From positions 1-34,218 of IMG/VR virus record IMGVR_UViG_3300006634_000003: a stretch of 34,218 bases of DNA. The stretch is one strand, 5' to 3'. This document shows, piece after piece, positions 16,071-32,632 of this stretch. This DNA comes from a virus. Below the pieces are notes generated by a model. That model was not told the DNA's origin. It saw nothing but the letters and a program-made list of their open reading frames with translations, and did no database searches. Positions within the stretch are counted from its first letter, which is position 1, and each line of letters opens with the position of its first letter. Both the position numbers and the translations under genes were made by a program.

Positions 16071-16071
16071 T

Positions 16072-16419
16072 ATGGCAGTAATACCAAAAAGTAATATAAA
16101 ATTTCCGGATGGTACTTCACTACAGGATGTGTACGATACTATAAATAGCGGTAGCGGTGGTGTCACTGTTTGTACTTCTACTACTAAACCTACATCACCT
16201 TCGGAAGGTGATCTAATTTATGTCACAGATAATGCCGCAGGCAAAGAACTTGAACACTATGATGGAACGGCATGGCAAACAGTAAATGACAATTCCGGGC
16301 TTGTACAGAACCCAATGACTGCTGATTTGGATACAGGTGGCTACAAAATAAAGAATCCGTCTGGTTCAGTTACATTTGAATCAAGTACAGGCGTATTTGT
16401 ATTCCAGAAATCTACATGA
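16072..16419 (+). CDS. small tail-fibre-associated protein
   Basis: TKPTSPSEGDLIYVTD..LEHYDGTAW is a common fibre shaft motif. Confidence 0.6.
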   Translation: MAVIPKSNIKFPDGTSLQDVYDTINSGSGGVTVCTSTTKPTSPSEGDLIYVTDNAAGKELEHYDGTAWQTVNDNSGLVQNPMTADLDTGGYKIKNPSGSVTFESSTGVFVFQKST

Positions 16420-16427
16420 GGTAGCAT

Positions 16428-17921
16428 ATGAGTTACAATGTTAGTATAACTAAAGATACTGATATAGATGAAGCAAATCCCGACACTAATTATGGTTCAG
16501 GTGACCGATTCCATGTTCAGGATTATACAGATAATGAAGAACGAACATTACTTTATTATCCTGTAACATCAATTGATGAATCATCTGGTGTGAAATCCGA
16601 ATTAAAGATGAAACCATCTAATAGAAACTCTACTATCGGTACAGTTACCATATACCAACCAGATAGTTCATGGGATGAATCTACAGTAACATGGAATAAT
16701 AAACCGTCTGTTTCAACTGGTACATTTGGTTTAGAATTCCAAAGTCAAGGGTTGGATAACAGTTTACAATCAGTCGATATAACGCAAATAACATCACGTT
16801 TTTTAGATGGTACATATACAAATAACGGTCTTTATTTTGTATATGAAAGTACTGACCCAAATGATATAGGCTGGTTCTCAAGTGACCAAAGTTCATATAC
16901 ACAGCCATATGTCGAAATAACTGAACATTCTGATTATGGATATAATTATGAGTCACCAACATTTGATGCATACTCCGGTGATGGATTTGGATTTGTATAC
17001 ATAACACTGTATGCATATGTTGACATCGGTTTCACAACACAATCAGGTAATTACCAGACAGAGTTTGATATACGAACTCCTTGGTCATCTACTGTACATA
17101 CTGAATATTTAGATGAAGGCGAAACCGTAACATATACAAATGTCGAAACTGGTTACACTGAGTATTTCAAAGTCGAGTATATGTTTACATCTTACGACAA
17201 TGAAATTGGGTATTTCCCTGTATGTAAGGCATATTGGTATCGTAAATCAGATGATACATATGTTTCAACCGAGAACGGTGATGATGACAACAGTGGCATA
17301 AGTTGGGATTATGCTTATGAAACTATAACTAAGGGTGCATCAGAAGTAGCAGATGGTTCAACCGTTTACATTGATGAAGGAATATACGCAAGTGAAACAA
17401 ATGCATTTCCTGATGGTAAGTCATACAACTTTGAAATCAAAAATGACGCAAGTTACATTGTTGTTTCAGGTGACTCACTTATATCTGGTACAGTTGGTGA
17501 ACCCTTTATGAAAAGTAGTCACACAACTGATATTACTAGGACAGTCATAGACGCTGCACATCCGTTTGCAAATGATGGAACGGTATATAGATTTAATGTA
17601 AATACACAAAATTTTTTTAGTCTGACATTTAGACCAGTTATCGTAAGACCAAATGTTGATACATATGAACTTATATATAGGCATCCAACACAAATCAGTA
17701 TTTCTCCTGAGCCAGAAATGCACTCATTCAACGCTGCTGTGGATGTTAAATCCGGTGATTTATTGGGTATAGTATATTATTCAAATATTTGGTGGGATGA
17801 CGATTGGAGTGATGAAGATTTACGATATATGCTTACTGATTTAACAGAGGATACATTAATAGCGGATTGGAGTCAATTGGGTGGCAAATACATTTCACTA
17901 TCTGCATCCTATGTATACTGA
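16428..17921 (+). CDS. DNRLRE-domain putative receptor-binding / tail adhesin protein
   Basis: TKDTDIDEANPDTNYG..ERTLLYY..WDESTVTWNNKP..VDIT..NNGL..SSDQ..PYVEI matches the DNRLRE pattern; Tyr/Thr/Asp-rich. Confidence 0.75.
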   Translation: MSYNVSITKDTDIDEANPDTNYGSGDRFHVQDYTDNEERTLLYYPVTSIDESSGVKSELKMKPSNRNSTIGTVTIYQPDSSWDESTVTWNNKPSVSTGTFGLEFQSQGLDNSLQSVDITQITSRFLDGTYTNNGLYFVYESTDPNDIGWFSSDQSSYTQPYVEITEHSDYGYNYESPTFDAYSGDGFGFVYITLYAYVDIGFTTQSGNYQTEFDIRTPWSSTVHTEYLDEGETVTYTNVETGYTEYFKVEYMFTSYDNEIGYFPVCKAYWYRKSDDTYVSTENGDDDNSGISWDYAYETITKGASEVADGSTVYIDEGIYASETNAFPDGKSYNFEIKNDASYIVVSGDSLISGTVGEPFMKSSHTTDITRTVIDAAHPFANDGTVYRFNVNTQNFFSLTFRPVIVRPNVDTYELIYRHPTQISISPEPEMHSFNAAVDVKSGDLLGIVYYSNIWWDDDWSDEDLRYMLTDLTEDTLIADWSQLGGKYISLSASYVY

Positions 17922-17930
17922 GGAACAATA

Positions 17931-18089
17931 ATGAATCTTGAACAATACCAGAAGCAATTAGCATATATATTATACCCCACTGTATTCAACAAAAGAGATG
18001 AATACAAACAAATAGCAGACGAATATAATCAGTTAAACGAATGGTTAACGTTTCCTAAACAAAATGAAGCAAAAATTAATTTTGTTTAA
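17931..18089 (+). CDS. small hypothetical protein (52 aa), below the ORF-track cutoff
   Basis: MNLEQYQKQLAYILYPTVFNKRDEYKQIADEYNQLNEWLTFPKQNEAKINFV*; purine-rich GAGGA upstream. Confidence 0.55.
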   Translation: MNLEQYQKQLAYILYPTVFNKRDEYKQIADEYNQLNEWLTFPKQNEAKINFV

Positions 18090-18129
18090 TATAGCAAGAT
18101 TGATATGCCCTAAATTTAACTAATATACA

Positions 18130-18178
18130 TCTTTTTTAATTCATGAAAATTGTATTTTATTTGTGATTATTTAACTTT
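18130..18178 (+). promoter_or_regulatory. T-tract terminator plus putative BRE/TATA promoter for a leaderless peptidase transcript
   Basis: CTTTTTT at 18131-18137; GAAAA then TGTATTTTAT about 20-30 nt upstream of ATG 18179; no SD. Confidence 0.4.
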
Positions 18179-18694
18179 ATGCAATTGATAACTATCGCCA
18201 AAGCTTTGCATGACCTTTCTCTTGCTATGGGTTATGAATGTCCGGTAACAGTTCCAGAATGGGTAAAATTTTCACACCAGAAATTTGATAAAAGAATAAA
18301 TAATAGTGAATTTAGGGAGCTTGTGAGGGAACAACTGGATTCTCTAAATGATATTACTTACTGGTTACCTGACGGGCATTATAAGCTTGTGCATAAAGAA
18401 CATTTTGAACGCTGGCTTGCTCTCAATCCTACCGATAAAAGAAAATATGTAAAGACCGTACACGATTGCGACGATTTCGAATCCATTTTGAGTGGTGATG
18501 TAAATGAATGGGATTCTGATCTTGCCTTTGGCGGTGTGTGGGTAGTTTATAAAAATTCAGACGGTGACTGGTGTGGTCATGCAGTAAACTTTTTTATAGA
18601 TATGGAATATAATATATGGTTTGTCGAACCCCAAACAGACGATATTTTCAGACCACCATCCGGATGGAAAGTTACCAAAATGAGGCTTGGTTAA
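18179..18694 (+). CDS. papain/transglutaminase-like cysteine peptidase (MOA agglutinin C-terminal-like), candidate lysin
   Basis: DCDDFE..GHAVN..WFVEPQTD gives a Cys-His-Glu triad pattern. Confidence 0.7.
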   Translation: MQLITIAKALHDLSLAMGYECPVTVPEWVKFSHQKFDKRINNSEFRELVREQLDSLNDITYWLPDGHYKLVHKEHFERWLALNPTDKRKYVKTVHDCDDFESILSGDVNEWDSDLAFGGVWVVYKNSDGDWCGHAVNFFIDMEYNIWFVEPQTDDIFRPPSGWKVTKMRLG

Positions 18695-18696
18695 GT

Positions 18697-18957
18697 ATGC
18701 AACTTGAGGAAGATGACTCTCTCAAAGAGGCAATTATAAAGATTTCAAGTACCCTTGACCTTATGCGTATGCGGATGGATCAAATTGAAGAAGTGGGTGG
18801 AGATCATGAAATAAGGTTGCGGACAAAGGAATCCGCACCCTGCCCACATCCGGATATTGTGAATCAGGTAACAGCCTTACGTATAAAACAATATGGCATA
18901 ATAATTATTCTAGCAGTAATTATCTATGTAGAATTTGGAATTATGCTTCCAATTTAA
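18697..18957 (+). CDS. coiled-coil plus C-terminal TM protein (XhlA/holin-like)
   Basis: Start reassigned to ATG 18697, just after the peptidase stop; C-terminal YGIIIILAVIIYVEFGIMLPI. Confidence 0.65.
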   Translation: MQLEEDDSLKEAIIKISSTLDLMRMRMDQIEEVGGDHEIRLRTKESAPCPHPDIVNQVTALRIKQYGIIIILAVIIYVEFGIMLPI

Positions 18958-19038
18958 AAAGAGCATATCTTTCTTTTTTGTCCTTATGTTTGGTCTCAAA
19001 GATACAGAAAAAGTTAAGGACGTGGCTCCTCTTGCCCG
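18958..19038. terminator. convergence point of the late (+) and replication (-) transcription units
   Basis: TCTTTCTTTTTTG at about 18968-18980 on +, between convergent stops. Confidence 0.5.
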
Positions 19039-19293
19039 TCAGAGCCATGCGTCAAGGGAGTTCTTGGGCTTCTCCGGAGGTTCCGTCTTGATGGGTGGGG
19101 TATATTGAGGTTCTACATAAAAAGGTTTGGAATTTGAATCTTCGGGTTCAAAAAGGGCAAGGAGGTCGTAACCTGCCATTGTGCCCTTCCCTATAACCTT
19201 GTTCTCATTACCAAGGACATGGAATCTTACGCCATATCCTATCTGTTCCACCACATCTATTCGATTGCCAGTTCTCTTTTCTATGTGAATCAT
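19039..19293 (-). CDS. hypothetical protein (84 aa)
   Basis: ATGA overlap with the upstream helicase gene. Confidence 0.65.
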   Translation of the reverse strand: MIHIEKRTGNRIDVVEQIGYGVRFHVLGNENKVIGKGTMAGYDLLALFEPEDSNSKPFYVEPQYTPPIKTEPPEKPKNSLDAWL

Positions 19294-20594
19294 AATACCA
19301 ATCCAGGCAATAATGCATTAATGTTTGCCTTTTTGGGTTTAATCATTTTCACATTATTACCAACATTCTTTTCTTCAAAGTAATCCTTGTTGATAAGAGA
19401 TTTAATATGTGATCTGGCGGTACTTTCAGAAGTGTGAGTTGCCATGCCAAAGGAAGCCGACATTGCACGCAAACCAACCCAACCACCTTCTGCTGTGGAC
19501 ATCTTCTCGTATTCATCCATCAAAAGCTTGAGGTGTGTCTTCTCTTTCTGAACCCCGTCATCCTTCTGTCTTGTAGAAACTTCAAGGAGTGTGAGGATTG
19601 AAGCCATTGCAGGTTTTATCATAGTTTCATATGCATAGTTGATATCTTCATTTTTGATATTTGTCCTTCCATGCATTACTGCATGGTGACAGGCAATTAC
19701 ATACATTTGATTCTGATATCTAGGCACAAATCCATTATACAACTTCTGGATGGAATGTGAAGAATATATTGCAATATCATACAGGCTACGCACACGATTT
19801 TTCAGGAGTGGTTTTACTCTACTGAAATCAAAGGTAAGTTTCTTGCGTCCTGCGGTCTGAATCTTCTTCAAGTGTTTCATGATCTCATCATCATAATCCA
19901 CAATCTCGGAGTCTTCACCAAGATTATCAATATCCATCTGGGAATTGTTCACCCTGTCCTGATAAGTAAGTTCCTTGGGAACCATGAACATTCTGGGCAG
20001 GAGTCCGGTATGTACGACCAGAGATTCGAATTTTTCAGGCACGTAAGAGGTGAAGAAGAAACTGGAATGTACTGGAAGTTCAATGGGGTCTCCATGAGCA
20101 AGTTTCTTTTTGATAATATTTGATGGTGTGCCTATTGGATTCATTGCCATCTGGAAATACAACTTCATATTTTCATTGTTGTTATTTGTATTCAGCAGGA
20201 CTTCGGCTTCATCGAAATGAATAACATCCGAAGAGGCAAGAATACCTGGGCAATGTTCATATTCAGTTACCTTATCATTATATTCATTGTACTTGGTAAC
20301 CTGTTCTACGGTTCCCAAAAGTGCAGCATCCGTGGCTGCCCCTATCGAATTATGTTCCATACTCAAATCTTTCATGCAATTTACAATATAATCCAGTGCT
20401 ACGGACTTGCCGGAACCCGTATCCATCATTACCCATGGATGTATCCTACAATCTATAATCTGTCCTTTTTTCTTCACGCTCTGATATCTCAAACACTGTC
20501 CAATAATAAGGTGTAGGGCTGCACGCCCGAACAACCTATTATTATATGAATAGTCAGAGAATCTTTTATCCCAATATTCAATAAGTTCATGCAT
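19290..20594 (-). CDS. MCM-like AAA+ ATPase/helicase with C-terminal winged helix
   Basis: Walker A MDTGSGKS, ATDAALLG, Walker B HFDE, Arg finger GLLPRM, sensor-2-like PRYQ. Start reassigned to MHELIEY (20594), overlapping the nrdD stop. Confidence 0.7.
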   Translation of the reverse strand: MHELIEYWDKRFSDYSYNNRLFGRAALHLIIGQCLRYQSVKKKGQIIDCRIHPWVMMDTGSGKSVALDYIVNCMKDLSMEHNSIGAATDAALLGTVEQVTKYNEYNDKVTEYEHCPGILASSDVIHFDEAEVLLNTNNNNENMKLYFQMAMNPIGTPSNIIKKKLAHGDPIELPVHSSFFFTSYVPEKFESLVVHTGLLPRMFMVPKELTYQDRVNNSQMDIDNLGEDSEIVDYDDEIMKHLKKIQTAGRKKLTFDFSRVKPLLKNRVRSLYDIAIYSSHSIQKLYNGFVPRYQNQMYVIACHHAVMHGRTNIKNEDINYAYETMIKPAMASILTLLEVSTRQKDDGVQKEKTHLKLLMDEYEKMSTAEGGWVGLRAMSASFGMATHTSESTARSHIKSLINKDYFEEKNVGNNVKMIKPKKANINALLPGLVL

Positions 20595-22527
20595 CGTATG
20601 TTTCTCCCTCTGTATCGTAATGCTGTCTGTTTTTCCATTCGGTTTCCTTGGATGGATGGTACTTGGATATTCTCTCCACATATCCGGTTATCCTCTGCAT
20701 ATAATCCACAATTTCGGCTCCACATTTCGGGCATTCTTCGTGTTTGCCTATTGTACCATGTTCATTCCTACAAATGGAGAACACTGGAGACAGAGCAAAG
20801 TAACCAAGGTCTGTATTGCACATTTTTATAACAAGGTCTTTCACGCCTTCGGGGTGTGGTGAATTCTCTCCAATGAAGAAGAGCAAGATATTACCACCAT
20901 CACACAATTTATGGAAAGGAGCTTCAGCCATTATCTTCTCTGGCAGGGAAAGTCCATCATCATATGGTACGTGAGTGGCTGGTGCATATTCAAAATCATG
21001 ATCATCCGTTCCGTGGATGGACAGGGATGTCTTGTCGTCTCCATATTCCCGACGTATGTACTTGATATTGCCTCTCACCATGTGATTGTTGGAAGATTCA
21101 TTGGGTGGAGCTTCTATTCCCCATTGTGGAGCATCGGGTTCATCCATCCATGTAGATATTATGTCCTTGGTGAAATGAATAACTGCCTGTGCAAATTCAT
21201 TGCCCTGCTTGCCTTTCAATCCATTCTCGAATCCCATGTGGACAAGCATATCATGCAGGAAGGCTGTGCCTACCAGAAGTCTCCTCTTCTCCGGATCATA
21301 ATATTTGATTCCGGAAGGTGTTTCTTTTGCCAGCCAAGAGTTAATGCCCCATTCATAAATGGAATCCCTTACCATGTCCTGTAGGTTCTCTCCGGTTTCT
21401 TTAATGATCCGAAGCCTGTCGGTCAGAATTGTCATGAATTCCCTTTTCATAGTATCATAGAACAAGGTCTGGTACTTATCCTTATCCATGGTAACTATAT
21501 CACCGAACATTCCAGAATCCAGTTTGGCTTCGGCAATCTTACGGGCTTCATAACCGATAATTGCATAATTCATGGTTATTATCCTGTCGGAACCCGTGCC
21601 CATTTCTCCACCTGACCAAATACCACCCATGGTATCAAACTTGACTCTTACCCTGCAGCATTGGGAAGATACGCAATCTTCATCTCCACCATCTGCCTGC
21701 ATGTAATCCGGAGACAAATTTACAATATACAGAGAACCATTATGAGCCATAGTCTCGAAGGCTTCAGTCCACAATTGAGAATCCCAATCAGAATCAGGTG
21801 TGACTGTGGTGGCGACCAATGGATAGGTAAATGGTATTCCACCCTTCATGCCTTCTCTCAAGATTTCCATGAACACGGAGGCAATAATTTCTGCATATGC
21901 TTGTATACTTACATGGGAGTATGTAATTTTATGATCTTTATTTATTTCATCGTACAACCCTTTATCCCCATCAAATATGACCGGACGGTTTTGCAAGGGT
22001 TTCGGACATTCAAAGCGTATTCCTGTATTGATGAAAGGGGGTTTTCCACCAGTACGGGTTATTTGATTGCAATTGTAAAAGAACTTCTGGAGTTCCTGTT
22101 TGATTTCATTTCTTTCCAGTCTGTCGGCATATGCATAGGGAGCAAGGAACCAGTTCACCCAATCCATGGACTGTGCGCCTGCAAAATGTCCCTGCGAGTA
22201 CATAGCAAAGGAGTATAAGTGGTCGATGGCAGAACCGAGATGGGATGCTGGGTATGCCTTGAGGGTTGGTAAATCCAATCCTGCCGAGAGGGGGATTGTG
22301 GGATCGATACTGTTGCAGTATGGTCCAATCTGGTCTGAATCATGTACATATATCAAACCATCCTCGTGTGCCTGTTTGGCTTCTGGTGAAAGGAAATTAT
22401 TCATTATAAAATTACGTATTTCGTATGAACCAAAAAGGGTCATCATTTGCTGATGACTCCTTGATTCACTGGCATTGGACTTGTCTTCTGCCCCGTACAG
22501 ATATTCTTCAATCGTCAACTTAGTCAT
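20587..22527 (-). CDS. nrdD: anaerobic (class III) ribonucleoside-triphosphate reductase
   Basis: YVHD..PYC, GAQS, QCCR, C-terminal Zn site CRNEH..CPKCG and glycyl-radical motif QRITGY. Confidence 0.93.
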   Translation of the reverse strand: MTKLTIEEYLYGAEDKSNASESRSHQQMMTLFGSYEIRNFIMNNFLSPEAKQAHEDGLIYVHDSDQIGPYCNSIDPTIPLSAGLDLPTLKAYPASHLGSAIDHLYSFAMYSQGHFAGAQSMDWVNWFLAPYAYADRLERNEIKQELQKFFYNCNQITRTGGKPPFINTGIRFECPKPLQNRPVIFDGDKGLYDEINKDHKITYSHVSIQAYAEIIASVFMEILREGMKGGIPFTYPLVATTVTPDSDWDSQLWTEAFETMAHNGSLYIVNLSPDYMQADGGDEDCVSSQCCRVRVKFDTMGGIWSGGEMGTGSDRIITMNYAIIGYEARKIAEAKLDSGMFGDIVTMDKDKYQTLFYDTMKREFMTILTDRLRIIKETGENLQDMVRDSIYEWGINSWLAKETPSGIKYYDPEKRRLLVGTAFLHDMLVHMGFENGLKGKQGNEFAQAVIHFTKDIISTWMDEPDAPQWGIEAPPNESSNNHMVRGNIKYIRREYGDDKTSLSIHGTDDHDFEYAPATHVPYDDGLSLPEKIMAEAPFHKLCDGGNILLFFIGENSPHPEGVKDLVIKMCNTDLGYFALSPVFSICRNEHGTIGKHEECPKCGAEIVDYMQRITGYVERISKYHPSKETEWKNRQHYDTEGETYDA

Positions 22528-23573
22528 TCTTGATTTCTCCTATCTATCATTGCTTGCGGAGATTTACCGGTGCTTATCAGGTCGAATTTAATACCGAAAT
22601 GATCTTCCACATCCTCTATCCACTGCTGGCTTTCAGGACTTAGTTCGGAGTAGGAAGTTGCACCAATGTTCCCCTTAAATAAATAATCTGCGAACATCAG
22701 AGCAAACTTATTCGGCTGATTAATATTCAGGGCTTCCCATATATCTGTCTTGGAAAATTCAAAGACACGACGAACACGGTTGGTGACTGTTGTTCTTTCA
22801 TTTACAGAATCCAGACCGCTCCTTTCACAGACAATACCCCAATCAATTTCATCGGCTCCGGTATCTCCGGAATTTCCGGCTACCCTGATCGGATAAACCC
22901 TCATGACACCCCAGATATCTCCGGCAAGTTTGGGTGAGATTCCACAATCGGAGAAGAATCCAGATACATTACAATCTCTGGAGGTACATTTGGGATAGTG
23001 GTGAGATGTAGTTAAGGACAAATGACACCCCTGCGTGCCTTCAATACATACCTTACCACTCATGGCATGTGCGTTGATAATAGGTATGGTATCACAAATT
23101 GTTGCGAATTGCTTGAGTTCCGGTACTTCATGGGCTTTTCTGACCTTGCCCTGTCTCTGAATCTTTTCTACAGTGCAGGCACCAATACCTTCTTGTGTTG
23201 AACCGATCTTCTGGAACATGCCTTTCTGGGATTCAGCTTCGGCATGACGGTGTTCTCCGACAGTTACCCTACTATCAATAAAGAGCCTGCTACGAATGTC
23301 CGTGATTCCGGCTTCTTCAATCATCTTGATTTCTTTTTCAAGAATGTCTGCTCTGATCATTCCACCTGCGCCAATGACAATTATTATATTGGGATTTATC
23401 CACTGACAGGGAATGGTCTGCATTTTATAATGCTTACCTTTATATGTCAGGGTATGACCAGCTTGCCATGCCCCAACCCTTACGCATGCGTCATACTCAT
23501 TTGCAAGGTGTGCAGATATCTTTCCTTTTCCTTCTGAACCATACTGTAATCCAACTATTGAATCTACTGGCAT
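22524..23573 (-). CDS. purZ: PurZ/PurZ0-like 2-amino-deoxyadenylosuccinate synthetase (adenylosuccinate synthetase superfamily)
   Basis: GLQYGSEGKG (Ser where PurA has catalytic Asp), QAGHT, EGTQG, YPKCTSRD, YPIRVAGNSG, ERTTVTNRVRRVFEFS, MFAD. Confidence 0.8.
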   Translation of the reverse strand: MPVDSIVGLQYGSEGKGKISAHLANEYDACVRVGAWQAGHTLTYKGKHYKMQTIPCQWINPNIIIVIGAGGMIRADILEKEIKMIEEAGITDIRSRLFIDSRVTVGEHRHAEAESQKGMFQKIGSTQEGIGACTVEKIQRQGKVRKAHEVPELKQFATICDTIPIINAHAMSGKVCIEGTQGCHLSLTTSHHYPKCTSRDCNVSGFFSDCGISPKLAGDIWGVMRVYPIRVAGNSGDTGADEIDWGIVCERSGLDSVNERTTVTNRVRRVFEFSKTDIWEALNINQPNKFALMFADYLFKGNIGATSYSELSPESQQWIEDVEDHFGIKFDLISTGKSPQAMIDRRNQE

Positions 23574-23575
23574 TT

Positions 23576-24136
23576 TTACTCTCCGTGTTGTTCTATAATT
23601 TCTCTGATCGCCTGATGAACGTCCATGATTGATTGATTACCATCTACCTTGTGATAAATTGGCATAAGTTGCCTACCAATCATGTAATTCGCCAGCCTCT
23701 CGTACTCTTCTTTTACTCTTTCTTGGAACTCGACCTTGCCATATATATCGTCTTCGGTAACAAACGGGGTACCCGTAAGAATAATCACGATATCTGTTTT
23801 GATATATGAATCAATAAGGTGATTAATCCTGTGTAGCCACTCCTCATCAAGTCCTTCAGCAATACCATAAGCGATGCCTGACTGGTACCACCTGTCGAAG
23901 ATTACCAGACCATCTGTTTGGTTTATCTTATGTTGTGTCTCAATCTTATTCAAGGTCATTAATGCCTGAAAAGACACAGGTTCATAGGGTAGGACTTTAT
24001 TCAGGATTTCCCTGATTACCTTACCACTATAAAAATCCTCATCTGGGTACTTTACTTTTTTGGCTCCCATTCCTACAAGCAAATCTGCCTGTGTGGTCTT
24101 TCCTATTTTATCTGGTCCTTCAATTACTACACGCAT
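23576..24136 (-). CDS. tmk: thymidylate-kinase-family dNMP kinase
   Basis: VIEGPDKIGKTTQ P-loop; KYPD; FDRWYQSGIAYG; VDGNQSIMDV. Confidence 0.9.
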   Translation of the reverse strand: MRVVIEGPDKIGKTTQADLLVGMGAKKVKYPDEDFYSGKVIREILNKVLPYEPVSFQALMTLNKIETQHKINQTDGLVIFDRWYQSGIAYGIAEGLDEEWLHRINHLIDSYIKTDIVIILTGTPFVTEDDIYGKVEFQERVKEEYERLANYMIGRQLMPIYHKVDGNQSIMDVHQAIREIIEQHGE

Positions 24137-24140
24137 ATTA

Positions 24141-24557
24141 TTACCTCTTTATATAATCTGCAAGTCCGGTGGGTGTCAGTAGGAAAGGTACTCCATTAGT
24201 AGTCAGACCGGAGACATAATTGTCCCTTAGGAGTTTACTTTCCCTCATTACTTCTTCCACATAAGCAGGAGTTTTGAATGCTTCAACAGACATAGGCACA
24301 TATACTGTTTTCTCAAAGTTGAATTTTCCATTCATCTTGTACAAGAGGCATTTGATAGGTACTTCGGGTTTCCTCAATTCATCGAAGATGGGTTTTATTC
24401 TATCTTCAACTTGTTTCAAGAAGTAGAAGATTTCTTCATCACCAAAATTTACTGTAGCACCATGAGTATCTGTAACTGTCAGGTGTATGTAGTTGTTTTC
24501 GGGATTGTCATCCCTCATCTTTCCAATGCTCATTTCAATGTTTCCTGATTCTACCAT
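24141..24557 (-). CDS. hypothetical protein (138 aa)
   Basis: SD AGGTGA; in operon. Confidence 0.7.
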   Translation of the reverse strand: MVESGNIEMSIGKMRDDNPENNYIHLTVTDTHGATVNFGDEEIFYFLKQVEDRIKPIFDELRKPEVPIKCLLYKMNGKFNFEKTVYVPMSVEAFKTPAYVEEVMRESKLLRDNYVSGLTTNGVPFLLTPTGLADYIKR

Positions 24558-24562
24558 TTAAA

Positions 24563-24679
24563 TCACCTTTTCGATCTCTTATCTTTATGTCTTCTTTGTC
24601 TTTCGTGGTAGGCTGGTATGTTCGGCTTGATGGGGATGAGGGAGCGTAAAGAGCGTATCTTCTCTTTGCTTTCCAGCAT
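24563..24679 (-). CDS. small basic protein (38 aa), below the ORF-track cutoff
   Basis: MLESKEKIRSLRSLIPIKPNIPAYHERQRRHKDKRSKR*; SD AGGTGAG; its stop is embedded in the next gene's SD. Confidence 0.55.
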   Translation of the reverse strand: MLESKEKIRSLRSLIPIKPNIPAYHERQRRHKDKRSKR

Positions 24680-24711
24680 ATCTCTCACCTTATGCCAGCC
24701 TGCGCTGTGTC

Positions 24712-25674
24712 TTAGTCTTTATATTCATAAGGACAAGGGTTGTCAGGAGTATCTGTACAGTATCCCATATCCTTAATCCTATGACAATTATAACACACCA
24801 TTGCTCTGTCGTATATTATATCTAACTGCCCTTCGGCAATGCAATGATTGTATTTTTCAGGATTCCAGACCTTACTCAAATATTGAGCAATGGCATCCTT
24901 GGAGTATGCAAGTTCTACAAGAGAGGATATAATAATAAAACGTTGCCTGTTGTCCGGATTTGGACCGCACATCATACAATTTTTATTTATATCTTCCTTG
25001 CGTACTTCAATATCATCCAGATCGATGTCTTTGGTATTATGTACCTTGTATTCTTCATCGAACTTGGACAGGTCGATACTCTTGCTTCCCACAAACATTC
25101 CCGAAGACAAGGGTTGTTGTTTTTTCGCCAGCGACCTTAGGGCTTGTAGGTCAAGCTCACGAAATTGTTGATCTGTTAAAGGAATACAAAAACACTGGGC
25201 TCCACCATTCCACGTATTAATCATTCTGACATGCTGGTTGGCATTTACACCTACAGCATCATCTTTCATAATACCAGCATTACTTTGAATGTATTGCATG
25301 GCGTTTTTAATGGAAGCGGTGGGATACTGTATAGGTTTAGAATTGGTGGTGGTACACGACAAAACTATGTGGAGACCGCTTCCAGAAAGAATACGAAGTC
25401 TCTTCACATCATAGTCTTCTAAGAACCTATCGAGTTTACGTGCTTCTTCCAGTGGGTTATACCCTTTATCCGGATCAAAGTCAAATAACAATTTATCAAC
25501 CATTGCGGTCTCATAGACCGGTTTCCCATTATTGAGCCAGCCATAAGAATAAAGTGAAGTGCTTACCATATTGGATTTACCATTATGGGCATTCACGTAA
25601 TCTCTCAATTCTTCCCATGAATGAACTATTCTTCTTTTACGGGAAACTTCTCTGGGAAATGAATTGTATAGCAT
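24712..25674 (-). CDS. priS: archaeo-eukaryotic primase (PriS catalytic domain fused to a PriL-like Cys-rich C-terminal domain)
   Basis: LFDFD (motif I), SGSGLH (motif II), RMINT (motif III); C-terminal C..NPDNRQRF..YNC..I..GYC..CP. Confidence 0.8.
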   Translation of the reverse strand: MLYNSFPREVSRKRRIVHSWEELRDYVNAHNGKSNMVSTSLYSYGWLNNGKPVYETAMVDKLLFDFDPDKGYNPLEEARKLDRFLEDYDVKRLRILSGSGLHIVLSCTTTNSKPIQYPTASIKNAMQYIQSNAGIMKDDAVGVNANQHVRMINTWNGGAQCFCIPLTDQQFRELDLQALRSLAKKQQPLSSGMFVGSKSIDLSKFDEEYKVHNTKDIDLDDIEVRKEDINKNCMMCGPNPDNRQRFIIISSLVELAYSKDAIAQYLSKVWNPEKYNHCIAEGQLDIIYDRAMVCYNCHRIKDMGYCTDTPDNPCPYEYKD

Positions 25675-26441
25675 TATAACATCTTTTCCATTTTCTTTAC
25701 CTTACGCCATTCACTCTTTGAGCAATCCGCTCTGCACTCTTTTTTGTAATCGCACCACTTACAAAGAGGGGTGGGTACTCTTTCAAAGGCTCCCGTTTTG
25801 CGTATCTCCCATGCCTTCTGGATATGTTCGTCTAAACTCTTCCATAAGCGAGGACTGACTTTTTCGAAGAAGAATCCACCTTGCGGATACTTCTCCGACT
25901 CTCCAAGGAATAAAGCTCCAATGTACTCTGCGTCTATCATCCTTGCATAAAAGGCAGTCTCTATCCTGATGTTGGCGAGATTGTCTTTGAATTTCCCACT
26001 TTTGGTATCTATAACTGCTCTGGCACCACATTCTAAATCCCATACTGAATCGAGTGTTCCTATTTCATGATATCTACGTGCAACAACTTCCTGATAGGTA
26101 GGTGTTATATTAAATTTACCTCCAGTCATTCTGCAATAGATACGCATAAAGTTATTCATATAAGGCACATAATATTTGTCATGTTCCGGTAGCCAGTCTT
26201 CCAGTTTATCTACACCCACACGGAACGGATAATTCTTGAAGTTATCAAAAGTTTCCTCTACCAGTGAATGAATATGAGTACCTTTCTCTGCCAGATCATT
26301 TGTGTATTCTATACCAAGTTCATATCTATAATAATATGGCATTGTACACTTTTTTCTGGAAAGTGACATAAATTGTGATTTAGACATAAGGTCGGGGTCT
26401 TTATCATAACCCCTACGTTCTGCAGGTTTTCCAACAATCAT
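25674..26441 (-). CDS. Cas4-like PD-(D/E)XK nuclease with putative 4Fe-4S cluster
   Basis: N-terminal Cys (KKCT), GTHIH, GTLD, IDTKSG, ETAFYA, C-terminal CKWCDYKKEC. Confidence 0.85.
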   Translation of the reverse strand: MIVGKPAERRGYDKDPDLMSKSQFMSLSRKKCTMPYYYRYELGIEYTNDLAEKGTHIHSLVEETFDNFKNYPFRVGVDKLEDWLPEHDKYYVPYMNNFMRIYCRMTGGKFNITPTYQEVVARRYHEIGTLDSVWDLECGARAVIDTKSGKFKDNLANIRIETAFYARMIDAEYIGALFLGESEKYPQGGFFFEKVSPRLWKSLDEHIQKAWEIRKTGAFERVPTPLCKWCDYKKECRADCSKSEWRKVKKMEKML

Positions 26442-26445
26442 AATA

Positions 26446-26868
26446 TCACCTATTTGGATTGTTTTTTTCCATCACGGATATTTTATCCTTAGGTGGCATT
26501 AATATGAATTCATTTACCTTAGATAAAATATTAAGTGTCATGCTTTTATCCGCAAATTCTTCATGTTCTTCACTTAATTCTCTTGATGGTATGCTTACAT
26601 TTGTGATATATACTAATGTGTCTCCATTATATGTTATATCAATATGTTTTTGATTTTCCTTTGAGAATATGTCCAATTTTTTTGTCTCTATATCATAATC
26701 CCATATAATGCCAGCAAAGTGTCTAAAATTAGACATTAATTTAGTAAGTTCCTTTGCTTTTCCCATATAATGTGAATATTCAATAAGTGATTTATTCCAT
26801 TCATCAAAACACTTTGGGTTAGGAGTTTCCAAACAATACATTGCGTATCCAAATTCTGGTGGTATCAT
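26446..26868 (-). CDS. hypothetical protein (140 aa)
   Basis: Start reassigned to MIPPEFG (SD GGAGGT; ATGA overlap with the upstream gene). Confidence 0.65.
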   Translation of the reverse strand: MIPPEFGYAMYCLETPNPKCFDEWNKSLIEYSHYMGKAKELTKLMSNFRHFAGIIWDYDIETKKLDIFSKENQKHIDITYNGDTLVYITNVSIPSRELSEEHEEFADKSMTLNILSKVNEFILMPPKDKISVMEKNNPNR

Positions 26869-27083
26869 AATACTACCTCCATTGTTATTAATGCTGACAA
26901 TATAAAACCAAGGACAAATCCACATGCAAACCAGAGAGCACGCTGTATATTTAAATATTTATACACCATACCGACAACTTTTGCTGGTTCTTCTGTATAG
27001 TATTGTTGCACTATGGTAGCAATATCCGTGTCTTCTCTAATCTCGTACTTTCTTTCATTACATAATTTACATGTTAATTTCAT
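26865..27083 (-). CDS. small CxxC protein with C-terminal TM segment
   Basis: MKLTCKLC..; hydrophobic ALWFACGFVLGFILSALI. Confidence 0.65.
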   Translation of the reverse strand: MKLTCKLCNERKYEIREDTDIATIVQQYYTEEPAKVVGMVYKYLNIQRALWFACGFVLGFILSALITMEVVL

Positions 27084-27271
27084 TTAATATCACTTCCCAT
27101 ATTTTCAATCAACTCTTTATTTGTTTTAGGTTTTGGACAAGGTTCATTCGGCCTATATCTAGATAATAAAGGTTCGCATATCCATTCCCTTGTTATTTTA
27201 TAACCTAAAATACATCTATTAAACTCCAAAGCCTTACAATCATTACAATTTTTCTTTTGTGAGATTTTCAT
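27080..27271 (-). CDS. small Cys-rich hypothetical protein (63 aa)
   Basis: CNDCKA..RCILG..PNEPCPKPKT; ATGA overlaps on both sides. Confidence 0.7.
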   Translation of the reverse strand: MKISQKKNCNDCKALEFNRCILGYKITREWICEPLLSRYRPNEPCPKPKTNKELIENMGSDIK

Positions 27272-27708
27272 TGTATCAACTCTGAAGTCTCATAGATGTT
27301 GCCAACAATGGTTAAATATTCTGTCTTCAGTTCTTCATCCTCTTGGTCGTATATTGGAATCCATTCTCTACCAGTAGGATGTATTAATTCAGGGTATATT
27401 GGATATATTCCTGCACATCCATATCTCCATTCAACTATATATAAAAATGGTTTTATACTACCATTAACTTTTATGTGTCCTTCCCTATCACCATATATTT
27501 TTTCAACAATATCCCCTTCGTAAATCTCCGTGCCATTCTTATCATAAAGTCCTGTAAACGGCATTAATGTCATTTTATGCAGCATTCGTTCTTGAACACA
27601 ATGTGTATCATCACGTAGATAAACTGTATCTGTATGCCATTCAATTCCCACAACTGTCCACATCCCTTTCTCAATTGTATCCCATGCTCTAAACTTAATT
27701 TCTCTCAA
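27268..27708 (-). CDS. yopX: YopX-family protein (copy 1)
   Basis: TTG start, SD GGGGTGA; REIKFRAWD..PFTGLYDKNGTEIYEGDIV..IVGNIYE. Confidence 0.9.
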   Translation of the reverse strand: MREIKFRAWDTIEKGMWTVVGIEWHTDTVYLRDDTHCVQERMLHKMTLMPFTGLYDKNGTEIYEGDIVEKIYGDREGHIKVNGSIKPFLYIVEWRYGCAGIYPIYPELIHPTGREWIPIYDQEDEELKTEYLTIVGNIYETSELIQ

Positions 27709-27998
27709 ATCATCACCCCATAAGTTATATCAATCTCTTTTATATCATAAATTTTTATAAGTGTAGCATCATTAATATAATATTGTTCTTCAATCTGTTC
27801 TCGAAATATTGATGCAGCCTCGTGCATATTTGGGGCAACAATTGTCTTATCGAATTCTTCTGATATTACATTATACATCTTCAATTTGCGCCCTTTATGA
27901 GTAGCATCAGTATCTTTTGTTTTCTCATCTTTCTGCCTCTCAAGATATTTATCATACACATCATTACTCATACGACATACTTTCACATCCCAGTCCAT
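27705..27998 (-). CDS. hypothetical protein (97 aa)
   Basis: In operon; overlaps the YopX start. Confidence 0.6.
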   Translation of the reverse strand: MDWDVKVCRMSNDVYDKYLERQKDEKTKDTDATHKGRKLKMYNVISEEFDKTIVAPNMHEAASIFREQIEEQYYINDATLIKIYDIKEIDITYGVMI

Positions 27999-28001
27999 TG
28001 A

Positions 28002-30138: not shown

Positions 30139-30287
30139 TTTCTTTTCTCCGGTTCTTCAAATTCAGTCTTACATTGCCTACATCTATACTTGGGTTGTTT
30201 ACGTACCCTTATGCGGAAATCGGCAGACTTACAGTTTGGGCAGGCAAGTCCGGAACTGTAAAGTTTGCCCTTTCTGAATTTTATCAT
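30135..30287 (-). CDS. small Zn-ribbon (CPxC...YRCxxC) protein, 50 aa, absent from the ORF track
   Basis: MIKFRKGKLYSSGLACPNCKSADFRIRVRKQPKYRCRQCKTEFEEPEKRK*; ATGA overlaps with both polB and the next gene. Confidence 0.75.
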   Translation of the reverse strand: MIKFRKGKLYSSGLACPNCKSADFRIRVRKQPKYRCRQCKTEFEEPEKRK

Positions 30288-32632
30288 GTTAAGAAATCCG
30301 CCAATGATCGCTGTCCTATCAATCCATTAATATCCCAGCCCATGGAGGAATACAAAAATTCCAGCTTTTTCATTGTAGCATCTCTCATTGCTTTATAATC
30401 TACAACTACTCCATCGGGTAGTGATGTATCCTCATCCACGGCAATGTAATTGGCTGGTGGATATTTGGAAGCTACCTTCTTGACCTTCACATAAAAGGGT
30501 TTGGTGCCTTCCTTGAAGTTCGTATTCAGGTTCTCATTTGACCACATGGCTGCAACCGCACGGTAGTAAGATTCCGGATAGGCGTGCAAGGGCTTCTTGA
30601 TTTCTGCCGGAACTCCAATCTCGGTTAATGGATATTGCCCTTTTTCTACCTTCTTCAATTCAGTAGAGTATTTCAAGTCCAATTCCCTCTTGGGCTTATA
30701 ATTCAGAAGGTCAAGGATTAGCTCCTTCTGCAGGTTCCGTGCCAGAGGGGAAGAATCTGAACGAATAGCATCAAAACCCTTCACTTCTAGCGCAGAAGGA
30801 TCATCCTCATCAAAGGTGGTACCGTCAATCCACCAAAGTTTGATGGCGTATCTGGTCTTGCCTGAAAAAATGCCGTTGCGTGCGACCTTTTCAAAGTCAA
30901 TGTTCATTTTTGCATGTTCATATGGTATGTTATATTGGCGTAGATGGAGAGGGAATTTACTATTCAGGTGTTCCTTGACTTCATTGCCGACTTCAATCAA
31001 CTTCTTGAGACTATTGTATTTGGTTACGAAACCTACCGAATCCGTGTGCCCGAATACCCACTGATATCCAAGTTTGTTGACCTCATGTCCGCAGAAGTCA
31101 ATTACACCACGGGTAATGTGTGTTACAGCATTAGCAATCCTTACATCATAAAACTTACAATGCTTGTCGGCTACATCACCATATACCGTGTTAATTGCTA
31201 CCTTGTATGCTTCACGGATTGCATTGGCAACCTTCCATTCTTTGGATTTGTACTTTTCTTTATCTCGCTTCTTGCCCCACTCGTCTTTCTTTTGAAAGAT
31301 ATCTTCAAGGAACGTCACGTATGCTCCCTTACGCACGTGGTGTGGCATGAAGCACGTACCCCCGATATCGATACAATCGTCAAGGGACACGCCTTCTGGG
31401 AGATTGGAGCCATCTTCATTTACCAATGTTTCTACAGACATATTACCGGACATCATGGAGAAGGGATAGGCAGAGGTCAAATCCTCAAATATAACATTCT
31501 CATGAAGTCCTACAACTGGTGGTCGGGGTTCGGCACCTTTTACCTTGCCATGCTCGGAATCGTGGGATGGGTATATGAACTGTGGCATTGCCCTACTCAT
31601 GGCGGTTTCTACCATCTTGCCCGAATACAGGGTGTCTTCCAGATTGCAGCCAAAAATCCTATGGAAGGTAACATGAGAACTCAAGATTGAAAGTTCCCTG
31701 TCAAGGAGCATCATCTTGTCCACATCATGATAATTATACTCCAATACTTCATCCGGATTCCTTGCCCATGCACGAGCAAGATATGCTGCATTCAATCCAT
31801 CATATTTGGCAAGTCCAAGTTCCCTTTCCAGAATATCATTCAGGGAATTTTTAATATATTTGCGCCTCTTCAGTCTCAAATATCCAGCTCTGTAATCAAA
31901 GAGTGCTACTCCTTTAATCTTGGCTTTGGGATTCCCATTAAAGTCCACGTTCACACTTACCGACTTCATTGGACTTATTGGGCTAATGTCAATATTCAAA
32001 GTGTTACACCGTCTGATTATGTAAACAATATCATAACCTAACAGGTTAAACCCTGCAATGACATCCGGACCGAATTTAGCAATATACTTTATCCAAGCAT
32101 TCAACATCTCGGTCTCTGTGGGATACCAGTATTCAATCCTGCCTGCAGTATTGAACTTCTGGGCTTCCTTGATTGATGAGTGAAAGCAGAACTGCACGAC
32201 CTTGCTGGAATGATTGAACTGGAAACCGATTATAATTATAGGCTCCGGTGCATCCATCATATACTTATTCGTGATGGGGGTATTATTGGAAGCTACCTCA
32301 ATATCCAGTCCACAGACCAGAGGATCAGCTTTTTCTTCAAATCCTTCCTCTATTCTATCAATCCAGTATCGTGTGGTAAAGGGAGTCTTGGCTTCGTAGT
32401 GTCTGTCACCACGCAATTTGCCAATATCCTGTGCCATCTTACATTCGACTTTCTTGACTTTCACGCCATCCTTGGCAGTATAAACATCTCCCTCTTTGCA
32501 TCCTTGCGGAGTAGGAACATCTACCGGAAGATAGAAGTAGGGGTGGAAATCCCACACTTCGTAGGACTTGCCTCCCCACGGAAATACTACAATTCCCGAT
32601 CTATCGTTCTTGACAACCTGCTCGATCTGCAT
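30284..32632 (-). CDS. polB: family B DNA polymerase with 3'-5' exonuclease
   Basis: ExoI LDIE, ExoII GFNLLGYD, ExoIII YNYHD; Pol motifs DLTSAYP, KVAINTVYG, FGHTDS, KTRY. Confidence 0.95.
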   Translation of the reverse strand: MQIEQVVKNDRSGIVVFPWGGKSYEVWDFHPYFYLPVDVPTPQGCKEGDVYTAKDGVKVKKVECKMAQDIGKLRGDRHYEAKTPFTTRYWIDRIEEGFEEKADPLVCGLDIEVASNNTPITNKYMMDAPEPIIIIGFQFNHSSKVVQFCFHSSIKEAQKFNTAGRIEYWYPTETEMLNAWIKYIAKFGPDVIAGFNLLGYDIVYIIRRCNTLNIDISPISPMKSVSVNVDFNGNPKAKIKGVALFDYRAGYLRLKRRKYIKNSLNDILERELGLAKYDGLNAAYLARAWARNPDEVLEYNYHDVDKMMLLDRELSILSSHVTFHRIFGCNLEDTLYSGKMVETAMSRAMPQFIYPSHDSEHGKVKGAEPRPPVVGLHENVIFEDLTSAYPFSMMSGNMSVETLVNEDGSNLPEGVSLDDCIDIGGTCFMPHHVRKGAYVTFLEDIFQKKDEWGKKRDKEKYKSKEWKVANAIREAYKVAINTVYGDVADKHCKFYDVRIANAVTHITRGVIDFCGHEVNKLGYQWVFGHTDSVGFVTKYNSLKKLIEVGNEVKEHLNSKFPLHLRQYNIPYEHAKMNIDFEKVARNGIFSGKTRYAIKLWWIDGTTFDEDDPSALEVKGFDAIRSDSSPLARNLQKELILDLLNYKPKRELDLKYSTELKKVEKGQYPLTEIGVPAEIKKPLHAYPESYYRAVAAMWSNENLNTNFKEGTKPFYVKVKKVASKYPPANYIAVDEDTSLPDGVVVDYKAMRDATMKKLEFLYSSMGWDINGLIGQRSLADFLT

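What the first reader, a model, noticed from the sequence alone, without database searches (positions are those of the whole stretch)
19290..24679. Translationally coupled dNMP kinase-purZ-nrdD-helicase block forms a near-complete dZTP supply module
Seen: tmk-like (23576-24136), purZ (2-nt gap), nrdD (ATGA overlap) and the MCM-like gene (overlap) are one tightly coupled unit. Established: Z synthesis needs a dGMP source, PurZ, host PurB, and kinases to reach dZTP, plus removal of dATP. Inference: NrdD supplies dGTP, and the Tmk-family kinase may be the dZMP kinase rather than a dTMP kinase. The dGTP-to-dGMP (MazZ) and dATPase (DatZ) steps have no recognisable gene in this window. They are either elsewhere, replaced by an uncharacterised neighbour (24141-24557, 24563-24679), or absent, which would mean partial substitution.
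Basis: partly seen in the sequence, partly recalled or inferred. Interest (0 to 1): 0.75.

Follow-up and report, generated by a model that had tools for sequence, protein, structure and literature searches.

The report
Kinase–PurZ-like–NrdD–helicase operon in phage
A tightly packed, evolutionarily conserved gene block in an uncultivated virus of anaerobes joins a thymidylate-kinase-type enzyme, a PurZ-like enzyme (the key step towards the unusual DNA base 2-aminoadenine), an oxygen-free ribonucleotide reductase and a helicase-like ATPase. The known enzymes that clear ordinary dATP are missing, and the kinase is more likely a thymidylate kinase than a dedicated "dZMP kinase".

Summary
On the minus strand, a Tmk-family kinase (23576-24136), a Ser-type PurZ-like adenylosuccinate-synthetase homolog (22524-23573), an NrdD without an ATP-cone (20587-22527) and a P-loop helicase-like gene (19290-20594) are joined by a 2-nt gap, an ATGA overlap and an 8-nt overlap. 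The same order recurs in six related metagenomic contigs (PurZ-like 51-63% identical).

- The PurZ-like protein carries the PurZ signature residues. It scores below the curated PurZ cut-off (226 vs 300 bits) and sits in a large Ser-type family that also includes cellular proteins.
- No DatZ, MazZ/MazG, DUF550, Dut or NDT homolog was found. I searched the window in six frames and the tiled 57-kb genome of a relative.
- The neighbour 24141-24557 is an ORFan with no relatives and no confident fold.
- The kinase belongs to a broad phage Tmk subfamily. A 40%-identical member is translationally coupled to a ThyA-like gene, and a relative of this virus also encodes a ThyA-like gene. dTMP is therefore the more likely substrate.

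"Near-complete dZTP module" is overstated. This is a new variant: PurZ-like plus generic dNTP-supply genes in a PolB/PrimPol virus. The scan had already noted the PurZ-like gene and the NrdD on this same window.

The parts
19290..20594 (-). P-loop (Walker A MDTGSGKS, Walker B IHFDEAE) helicase-like ATPase with a predicted C-terminal winged helix. Probable start is ATG 20594 (434 aa); the longest ORF reaches 20681.
   Evidence: No family or PDB sequence hit. ESM look-alikes are viral hypotheticals, 11% with DUF3987. AF2 pLDDT is 55; Foldseek top hits are mostly MCM subunits at E >= 0.012. Orthologs are 49-59% identical in four relatives.
20587..22527 (-). Class III (anaerobic) ribonucleotide reductase NrdD. 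No ATP-cone; glycyl-radical motif RITGY; C-terminal Cys/His cluster.
   Evidence: Pfam PF13597 296 bits over residues 18-637. TIGR02487 scores 287 bits, below its cut-off of 326. Sequence. No radical-SAM activase in the window.
22524..23573 (-). Ser-type short adenylosuccinate-synthetase homolog (PurZ-like, 349 aa).
23576..24136 (-). Thymidylate-kinase-family P-loop dNMP kinase (186 aa).
   Evidence: Pfam PF02223 58.9 bits; phrog_761; TIGR00041 scores 61 bits, below its cut-off of 83. PDB: yeast, vaccinia and Plasmodium TMPKs at E 3e-9 to 2e-7. Subfamily analysis.
24141..24557 (-). ORFan, 138 aa; accessory gene, not part of the conserved core.
   Evidence: No Pfam, PHROG or NCBIfam hit. No homolog in relatives. 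No ESM Atlas hit. AF2 pLDDT is 43.7.
24563..24688 (-). 41-aa ORF (GTG start; 38 aa from ATG 24679). Unconserved, may not be a gene.
24712..25674 (-). PrimPol-like protein (320 aa), conserved upstream neighbour of the block.
   Evidence: Weak LigD_Prim-Pol hit (6e-4) and phrog_16345 primase (2e-6). 45-51% identical orthologs.
25674..26441 (-). PD-(D/E)XK / Cas4-like exonuclease.
30284..32632 (-). Family B DNA polymerase, the only polymerase seen in the window.
   Evidence: Pfam PF00136 and PF03104; phrog_262 at 4e-88.

Best explanation
The stretch is the distal part of the replication operon of an uncultivated tailed-virus lineage of anoxic habitats that replicates with PolB and a PrimPol-like protein. 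It works as a nucleotide-supply unit that is co-transcribed and translationally coupled with replication genes. (1) NrdD, activated by the host's NrdG, reduces NTPs to dNTPs without oxygen. It has no ATP-cone, so presumably no dATP shut-off (inferred). (2) The Ser-type PurZ-like enzyme most likely condenses dGMP with aspartate to give succino-2-aminodeoxyadenylate. Host PurB, GMP kinase and NDK would then carry this to dZTP, giving full or partial replacement of A by 2-aminoadenine (inferred from residues; not shown). (3) The Tmk-family kinase most likely phosphorylates dTMP or a dTMP-like product of the ThyA-like enzyme encoded elsewhere in related genomes. That would supply the pairing partner of Z. 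Activity on purine dNMPs such as dZMP is possible but secondary. (4) The module is not a complete Z cluster. No enzyme for dGTP->dGMP or for dATP removal is encoded in the window or in a nearly complete relative. Exclusion of A, if it happens, must rest on the PolB, on the PurZ-like enzyme's own NTP use, on host enzymes or on unrecognised genes.
For: Tight junctions. No enrichment of promoter- or terminator-like sites inside the block. Gene order is conserved in six related contigs. PurZ-like residues match phiVC8 PurZ F12/S14/T262/P233/W252/F295/Y298 as Y11/S13/T261/P228/W245/F294/Y297; these are the residues named as dGMP 2-amino and ATP contacts in bioRxiv 10.1101/2025.10.22.683976 sec. 4. 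Ser is found in 100% of phage PurZ-group sequences versus Asp in 99% of PurA (PMC12884076). Nearest viral or MAG out-groups of the PurZ-like clade (L010, L097, L100; 42-44% identical) carry a DatZ-like HD gene 1-3 kb downstream. Tmk: member P0134, 40% identical, overlaps a ThyA-like gene (L196), and that ThyA-like is 35% identical to the one in the relative genome (L189:3938-4696). Absence of DatZ, Dut, DUF550, MazG, HD and NDT. NrdD features.
Against: The PurZ-like protein is below the curated cut-offs of both the PurZ model (226/300 bits) and the archaeal-type PurA model (242/368 bits). It keeps Asp296, the guanine-binding Asp of PurA and PurZ0, where ATP-using PurZ has Asn. Ser-type homologs at 33-45% identity are common in cellular genomes, and are the only AdSS homolog in a Nanoarchaeota MAG and a Saccharibacteria MAG. 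Ser therefore does not prove a Z-genome. No known Z phage lacks every dATP/dGTP hydrolase (PMC12884076). The Tmk-PurZ adjacency is conserved, which a pure dTMP role does not explain. The thymine-stacking Phe and the O4-binding Arg of canonical TMPKs are Met and Lys/Gln here. The window is about 61% of the genome, so its own missing 23 kb is unseen.
Confidence: 0.5

Rival explanations
1. One reading: the Tmk-family enzyme is the pathway's dZMP kinase. Tmk-PurZ-NrdD would then be a dedicated dZTP line, with MazZ and DatZ elsewhere or replaced.
For: The 2-nt gap and conserved Tmk-PurZ adjacency hold across 33-46% Tmk divergence. Base-contact residues of canonical TMPK are changed. TMPK-family enzymes can accept purines: Plasmodium TMK phosphorylates dGMP about as well as dTMP (PMC6366710). 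No phage-encoded enzyme for dSMP->dZTP has been reported (PMC8342488; no paper in the library links PurZ with thymidylate kinase). In cellular genomes, Ser/Gly-type AdSS-like genes are repeatedly followed by a dNK-family kinase (11 of 80 loci).
Against: The changed residues are shared by a broad phage Tmk subfamily. Members of it stand without PurZ (L192) or are coupled to a ThyA-like gene (L196). 0 of 80 other viral PurZ-like loci have a Tmk nearby. In L006 and L007 the adjacency is broken by homing-endonuclease insertions. No replacement for MazZ or DatZ was found.
Confidence: 0.2
2. The PurZ-like enzyme does not make Z-DNA. It is a member of the wider Ser-type AdSS family with another purine-interconversion role, for example (d)AMP supply or salvage. 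The block is then an ordinary dNTP-boosting set (RNR + Tmk + AdSS) in a virus with normal A.
For: Below the PurZ cut-off and slightly better to archaeal-type PurA. Equal PDB scores to P. horikoshii PurA and to PurZ-type structures. The GTP-type Asp is retained. Many cellular homologs exist, some as the sole AdSS. The dATP-clearing enzymes that accompany purZ in characterised Z phages are all absent. PolB is used rather than DpoZ.
Against: [quoted passage not shown] Mutating Ser to Asp is reported to abolish selectivity (preprint sec. 4). In my tree the protein falls inside the Ser-type clade spanned by PurZ and PurZ0, next to DatZ-bearing viruses. Its place in a DNA-replication operon next to an RNR argues for a deoxynucleotide substrate.
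Confidence: 0.25

Closest known systems
Phage Z-cluster (purZ-datZ-mazZ/DUF550 with DpoZ; phiVC8, SH-Ab 15497, S-2L)
   Same: A short AdSS homolog with Ser in place of catalytic Asp13, a Thr in the TTVT loop and an F..Y NTP pocket. It is placed inside the replication gene cluster.
   Different: 31-35% identity only. P-loop is SEGKGK rather than STGKGL. Asp296 is kept where PurZ has Asn. No DatZ, no MazZ/DUF550, no PolA-type DpoZ. Neighbours are Tmk and NrdD; the polymerase is family B.
PurZ0 systems of actinophages (Wayne, Ghobes, Pumancara: purZ0 + dutZ/dmtZ/DUF5664 + DpoZ-1)
   Same: Ser-type enzyme with SE(G/A)KG P-loop and the guanine-type Asp retained. Best PDB match is 7vf6, 'PurA-like adenylosuccinate synthetase' (1.6e-39). 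It groups on the PurZ0 side of the tree.
   Different: 31% identity. F294/Y297 where PurZ0 has M/Q. No Dut-like or NDT-like gene, whereas every PurZ0 genome has dutZ (PMC12884076). 41 of 80 other viral PurZ-like loci have a Dut-like gene nearby; this lineage has none.
Phage Tmk + ThyA pairs (thymidylate supply; by analogy T4 gp1/gp42-type kinase plus pyrimidine-modifying synthase; own knowledge)
   Same: The kinase is 40% identical to a phage Tmk that overlaps a ThyA-like gene (L196). A relative of this virus encodes a 35%-identical ThyA-like protein with the catalytic Cys, RSxD and Asn kept.
   Different: Here the kinase is coupled to the PurZ-like gene, not to ThyA. No ThyA is present in the window.
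Class III RNR of phages (T4 NrdD/NrdG; own knowledge)
   Same: NrdD fold and glycyl-radical motif.
   Different: No ATP-cone and no cognate NrdG in the window or in the relative genome.

Membership tests
PurZ (succino-amino-deoxyadenylate synthase) | Catalytic Asp13 of PurA replaced by Ser | tested here: met
   GLQYGSEGKGK, Ser13. Invariant in 23 close homologs and in 170 of 176 family members aligned.
PurZ (succino-amino-deoxyadenylate synthase) | [quoted passage not shown] | tested here: met
   Y11 (Tyr is also found in Bm1 PurZ and PurZ0) and T261; canonical PurA has W and G.
PurZ (succino-amino-deoxyadenylate synthase) | ATP-type donor pocket (phiVC8 F295, Y298; Asn instead of the guanine-binding Asp) | tested here: inconclusive
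   F294 and Y297 are present, but Asp296 is kept as in PurA and PurZ0. The donor cannot be called.
PurZ (succino-amino-deoxyadenylate synthase) | Score above the curated NCBIfam NF038379 cut-off (300 bits) | tested here: not met
   226 bits. The archaeal-type PurA model NF003295 gives 242.5 bits against a cut-off of 368.
PurZ (succino-amino-deoxyadenylate synthase) | Falls in the monophyletic PurZ/PurZ0 group | tested here: inconclusive
   FastTree of 178 sequences rooted on two bacterial PurA. It lies inside the Ser-type clade, apart from both reference groups, beside DPANN-archaeal and DatZ-bearing viral sequences. Node supports are 0.58-0.90. No Asp-type archaeal outgroup was available.
PurZ (succino-amino-deoxyadenylate synthase) | dGMP + Asp -> dSMP activity; dZ in the DNA | not testable with these tools
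   Needs an enzyme assay and nucleoside analysis.
Z-cluster | Co-encoded dATP/dGTP hydrolase (DatZ HD, MazZ MazG, DUF550/DUF5664, DutZ) or DmtZ | tested here: not met
   Six-frame Pfam search of the window found nothing for PF03819, PF13023, PF01966, PF00692, PF04447 or PF05014 at E <= 1. Profiles built from reference DatZ, Dut and DUF550 found nothing in the window, L005, L008, L190, L095 or the tiled 57.2-kb relative genome; best E was 0.085. The window's own missing ~23 kb is unseen.
Thymidylate kinase (Tmk) | Pfam PF02223 over the gathering score; P-loop GxxxxGK(T/S); DR(Y/W) motif | tested here: met
   58.9 bits against 27. GPDKIGKTT and FDRW are invariant in orthologs.
Thymidylate kinase (Tmk) | NCBIfam equivalog TIGR00041 cut-off (83.25 bits) | tested here: not met
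   61 bits.
Thymidylate kinase (Tmk) | Thymine-stacking Phe and O4-binding Arg (yeast F69/R73; numbering from my own knowledge) | tested here: not met
   Met60 (invariant) and Lys/Gln64 in the alignment to 1tmk. The same Q/M/N substitution occurs in subfamily members coupled to ThyA-like genes, so it is not diagnostic of a non-thymine substrate.
NrdD (class III RNR) | NRDD domain and C-terminal glycyl-radical motif | tested here: met
   PF13597 296 bits; RITGY. TIGR02487 scores 287 bits, below its cut-off of 326.
NrdD (class III RNR) | Cognate activase NrdG | tested here: not met
   No radical-SAM match in the window. None among the precomputed Pfam hits of the relative genome.
MCM helicase | MCM AAA+ domain recognisable by sequence or confident fold | tested here: inconclusive
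   No Pfam, PHROG, NCBIfam or PDB sequence hit. Foldseek hits to MCM2-7 and SsoMCM have E 0.012-0.2 on a model with pLDDT 55.

The most novel reading that the evidence does not exclude
A PolB/PrimPol virus lineage of anaerobes, possibly infecting methanogenic or other archaea, makes 2-aminoadenine DNA by a minimal route. That route has a PurZ-like enzyme of a third, PurZ0/PurZ-hybrid type and no known dATP- or dGTP-hydrolase. A phage-encoded Tmk-family kinase that is translationally coupled to PurZ serves both partners of the Z:T pair (dZMP and dTMP). This would be the first virus-encoded step downstream of PurZ and the first Z system independent of DatZ, Dut and DpoZ.
Probability: 0.15. Interest if true: 0.85.

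Novelty: new variant of a known kind. Interest (0 to 1): 0.5.

Why it matters
All characterised Z-genome phages pair PurZ or PurZ0 with enzymes that destroy dATP and provide dGMP, and most have a PolA-type DpoZ. A lineage that keeps a PurZ-signature enzyme locked to a dNMP kinase and an anaerobic RNR, replicates with PolB, and lacks every known pool-editing enzyme leads to one of two conclusions. Either Z-DNA can be made and kept by different means, or Ser-type AdSS enzymes have a wider role in deoxypurine metabolism than Z synthesis. The second would explain their presence in DPANN archaea, CPR bacteria and bacterial dNK/DCD cassettes. Both can be tested with two recombinant enzymes and one DNA composition measurement.

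Tried and rejected
1. A single-sequence scan of IMG/VR with the PurZ-like protein found no relative. An alignment-based scan found 80 loci, all 45% identical or less.

2. The genome search cannot reach the ENA contigs of the close relatives. I tiled one 57.3-kb relative with five encoding-contig look-ups instead.

3. P0003 (24141-24557) as a hidden MazZ or DatZ is rejected. It has no family hits, no ESM Atlas hit, no homolog in relatives and an AF2 pLDDT of 43.7, so no fold search was run.

4. The small genes between Tmk and PurZ in L006 as hydrolase candidates are rejected. They are paralogs of an HNH/EndoVII-like homing-endonuclease family.

5. The word-based homolog search for the kinase found only two proteins. 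The full HMMER search was needed.

6. For the helicase-like protein, PDB phmmer and a profile search returned nothing, and the AF2 model has low confidence.

7. Host test with the helicase-like profile: 2 weak hits in 301 genomes of the class around a MAG labelled Methanosarcinales (genome sizes 0.5-1.2 Mb, so the class may be DPANN-like). There were 0 hits in 301 genomes of the order around the Hespellia MAG. This is inconclusive.

8. Tong et al. 2023 (the PurZ0 paper) is not held. Statements about PurZ0 donor use come from PMC12884076 and the preprint.

9. The promoter/terminator scan gave counts at the level of shuffles and says nothing either way.

Full report
**What the window is.** The window is a whole IMG/VR record of 34,218 bp. 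It is linear and CheckV rates it 61% complete. Positions 1-19,000 carry plus-strand structural genes: prohead protease, SU10-type capsid, LamG proteins, tail tube and a CBM96 fibre. Positions 19,290-34,218 carry a minus-strand replication arm. Its genes, in order of transcription, are listed below.
- An AAA_24/Sak4-like gene.
- PolB.
- A variable stretch with two YopX genes and a small HAD-like gene.
- A PD-(D/E)XK/Cas4-like nuclease.
- A PrimPol-like gene.
- A 41-aa ORF and a 138-aa ORFan.
- A Tmk-like kinase, a PurZ-like enzyme, NrdD and a P-loop helicase-like gene.

**Observation.**
- The junctions are as described: a 2-nt gap between tmk and purZ, an ATGA overlap between purZ and nrdD, and an overlap between nrdD and the next gene.
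- The last gene most plausibly starts at ATG 20594. That start follows a GAGGGAG Shine-Dalgarno sequence, overlaps nrdD by 8 nt and gives 434 aa, which fits the 419-436 aa of its orthologs.
- No intergenic space, and no excess of promoter- or terminator-like sites, interrupts the array.

**Conservation.** The PurZ-like protein has metagenomic relatives at 51-63% identity on contigs of 37-60 kb.
- Five of these contigs were fetched. All show PolB - PD-(D/E)XK - PrimPol-like - Tmk - PurZ-like - NrdD - helicase-like in the same order and with similarly tight junctions.
- A 6.2-kb contig binned to a Hespellia MAG holds the first part of this order.
- The 138-aa and 41-aa ORFs upstream of tmk have no counterpart in any relative. 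The spot between PrimPol-like and PurZ-like is a variable region.
- In L006, L007 and L190 that spot holds HNH/EndoVII-like homing endonucleases with several paralogs per genome. In L006 one of them separates Tmk from PurZ.

**Is the synthetase a PurZ?** Evidence for:
- It has Ser13 where PurA has the catalytic Asp.
- Its Y11, T261, P228, W245, F294 and Y297 match phiVC8 PurZ F12, T262, P233, W252, F295 and Y298. [quoted passage not shown] 4).
- Ser occurs in 100% of phage PurZ-group sequences, against Asp in 99% of PurA (PMC12884076, section on dutZ and dmtZ).

Evidence against a simple call:
- It scores 226 bits against the curated PurZ model (cut-off 300) and 242.5 bits against archaeal-type PurA (cut-off 368).
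- Its PDB matches to 7vf6, Pyrococcus PurA and phiVC8 PurZ are equally good.
- Identity to any cultured-phage protein is 35% or less.
- It keeps Asp296, the guanine-binding Asp of PurA and PurZ0, where ATP-using PurZ has Asn. Its pocket is therefore a hybrid.

Ser-type (and a few Gly-type) short AdSS homologs at 33-45% identity are widespread in cellular assemblies. They occur in DPANN archaea, Patescibacteria, Dehalococcoidia, Actinomycetota and Proteobacteria.
- Three bacterial genomes hold them beside a canonical PurA.
- A Nanoarchaeota MAG and a Saccharibacteria MAG hold only the Ser-type protein.

In a 178-sequence tree the window's lineage lies inside the Ser-type clade and apart from both reference groups. 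It sits next to a DPANN-archaeal group and to viral or MAG contigs (L010, L097, L100) that carry a DatZ-like HD gene 1-3 kb downstream. Supports are moderate, and no Asp-type archaeal outgroup was available. I read the protein as a PurZ-like enzyme of a third type. It probably acts on dGMP, but this is unproven.

**Missing pathway steps.**
- Six-frame Pfam searches of the window found no MazG, HD, HD_3, dUTPase, DUF550 (dATP-dGTP_PPHyd) or NDT domain at E <= 1.
- I tiled 57,162 of 57,310 bp of one relative genome.
- Profiles built from reference DatZ, Dut-like and DUF550 proteins found nothing there, nor in the other relatives. The best E-value was 0.085.
- Neither the precomputed Pfam lists nor my Pfam and PHROG scans of its unknown ORFs show such a fold.
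- By contrast, 41 of 80 other viral PurZ-like loci have a Dut-like gene and at least 36 have a PolA within 10 kb. None of the 80 has a Tmk, NrdD or PolB neighbour.
- The lineage therefore lacks the partners that accompany purZ and purZ0 in all described Z phages (PMC12884076; PMC8342488). 'Near-complete' is not justified.

**The kinase.** It is a TMPK-family protein: Pfam 58.9 bits, with yeast, vaccinia and Plasmodium TMPKs as best PDB matches. It scores below the dTMP-kinase equivalog cut-off (61 against 83 bits).
- In the alignment to yeast TMPK, the thymine-stacking Phe is Met60, invariant in five orthologs. The O4-binding Arg is Lys or Gln.
- A purine substrate is conceivable, because Plasmodium TMK phosphorylates dGMP about as well as dTMP (PMC6366710).
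- A full HMMER search found about 10,800 relatives. The nearest few dozen share the motif FQxL[M/Q/N]..N[K/R], so the odd residues are a subfamily trait.
- Of three subfamily members traced to contigs long enough to judge, P0131 lies in another member of the same PurZ lineage.
- P0133 stands in a phage contig with no PurZ nearby.
- P0134, 40% identical to the window's kinase, overlaps a ThyA-like gene.
- That ThyA-like protein is 35% identical to one encoded in the tiled relative genome. The relative's copy keeps the catalytic Cys, the RSxD motif and the uracil-type Asn.
- The window itself has no ThyA, but the matching region lies outside it.
- The simplest reading is a kinase for dTMP, or for a 5-modified dUMP. 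A dZMP role remains possible but is no longer the best guess.

**NrdD and the helicase-like gene.**
- NrdD has the full NRDD domain and the glycyl-radical motif. It has no ATP-cone and no activase, so it depends on host NrdG and marks an anaerobic host. It supplies all dNTPs, not specifically dGTP.
- The helicase-like protein has Walker A and B motifs and a predicted C-terminal winged helix.
- Sequence methods find nothing for it. A weak model gives mostly MCM subunits at non-significant scores.

**Host.** The host is unresolved.
- YopX genes and the Hespellia bin point to Clostridia.
- The PolB/PrimPol/MCM-like set points to archaea, as do an S-layer (PF07752) domain in L190, a weak disaggregatase repeat in the fibre gene, and the 2/301 versus 0/301 helicase-profile hits.

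**Verdict.** This is a real, conserved, translationally coupled unit and a new variant of PurZ-bearing viruses. The dZTP-module interpretation is partly supported for the synthetase. It is not supported for module completeness, and it is weakened for the kinase.

Noticed in passing
L162:7956-12801, L154:7905-15801, L146:6644-12770, L148:208-5913; also L141, L152, L167, L138, L150, L139, L147: In 11 of 80 cellular genome loci a dNK-family kinase lies within 2.1 kb of the Ser/Gly-type AdSS-like gene, downstream on the same strand in 10 of them. Several phyla share a four-gene cassette: an RNase_H_2 exonuclease-like + AAA_18 fusion, the AdSS-like gene, a dCTP-deaminase-like (DCD) gene and dNK. 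In L154 an Eco57I/MmeI-type methylase follows. This could be a cellular counterpart of the phage Z cluster, or a nucleotide-based defence or modification island.
   Followed up: partly
G003 (Nanoarchaeota MAG, L098) and G004 (Saccharibacteria MAG, L104) versus G001, G002, G005: The Ser-type short AdSS homolog is the only PF00709 match in the two small-genome MAGs. Sinorhizobium, a Dehalococcoidia MAG and Cellulomonas hold it beside a canonical PurA.
   Followed up: partly
L189:3938-4696 (relative genome) and L196:1003-2267: A divergent 240-252-aa ThyA-like protein (PF00303 at about the gathering score; PCF Cys, RSxD and Asn kept) is encoded in a relative of this virus. In another phage contig it is translationally coupled to a Tmk of the same subfamily. 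It could be a thymidylate synthase or a dUMP hydroxymethylase.
   Followed up: partly
L006:8169-8651, L006:9471-10007, L006:18917-19372, L090:3926-4420, L005:5583-6173, L190:7514-7999: A multi-copy HNH/EndoVII-like homing-endonuclease family is scattered through the relatives' genomes. Copies flank the Tmk gene in L006.
   Followed up: yes
window 28879-29190: A 103-aa HAD-like phosphatase (phrog_1238 at 1e-21; weak NCBIfam HAD hits), conserved only in L008. It is the only other hydrolase candidate of nucleotide type in the window, and its substrate is unknown.
   Followed up: no
window 27268-27708 and 28455-28901: Two YopX-family paralogs sit in the variable stretch between the nuclease and PolB. 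They are absent from the relatives.
   Followed up: no
window 16428-17921; L190:14859-15998: The fibre-region proteins carry CBM96 plus a weak disaggregatase repeat (window) and an S-layer PF07752 domain (L190). These may hint at a methanogen-type cell envelope as the receptor.
   Followed up: no
L005:9188-9997; L095:4014-4793: The Tmk ortholog in L005 carries a roughly 90-aa C-terminal extension. The L095 ORF has a roughly 55-aa N-terminal extension, which may be a start-codon artefact. Neither extension has any detectable similarity.
   Followed up: no
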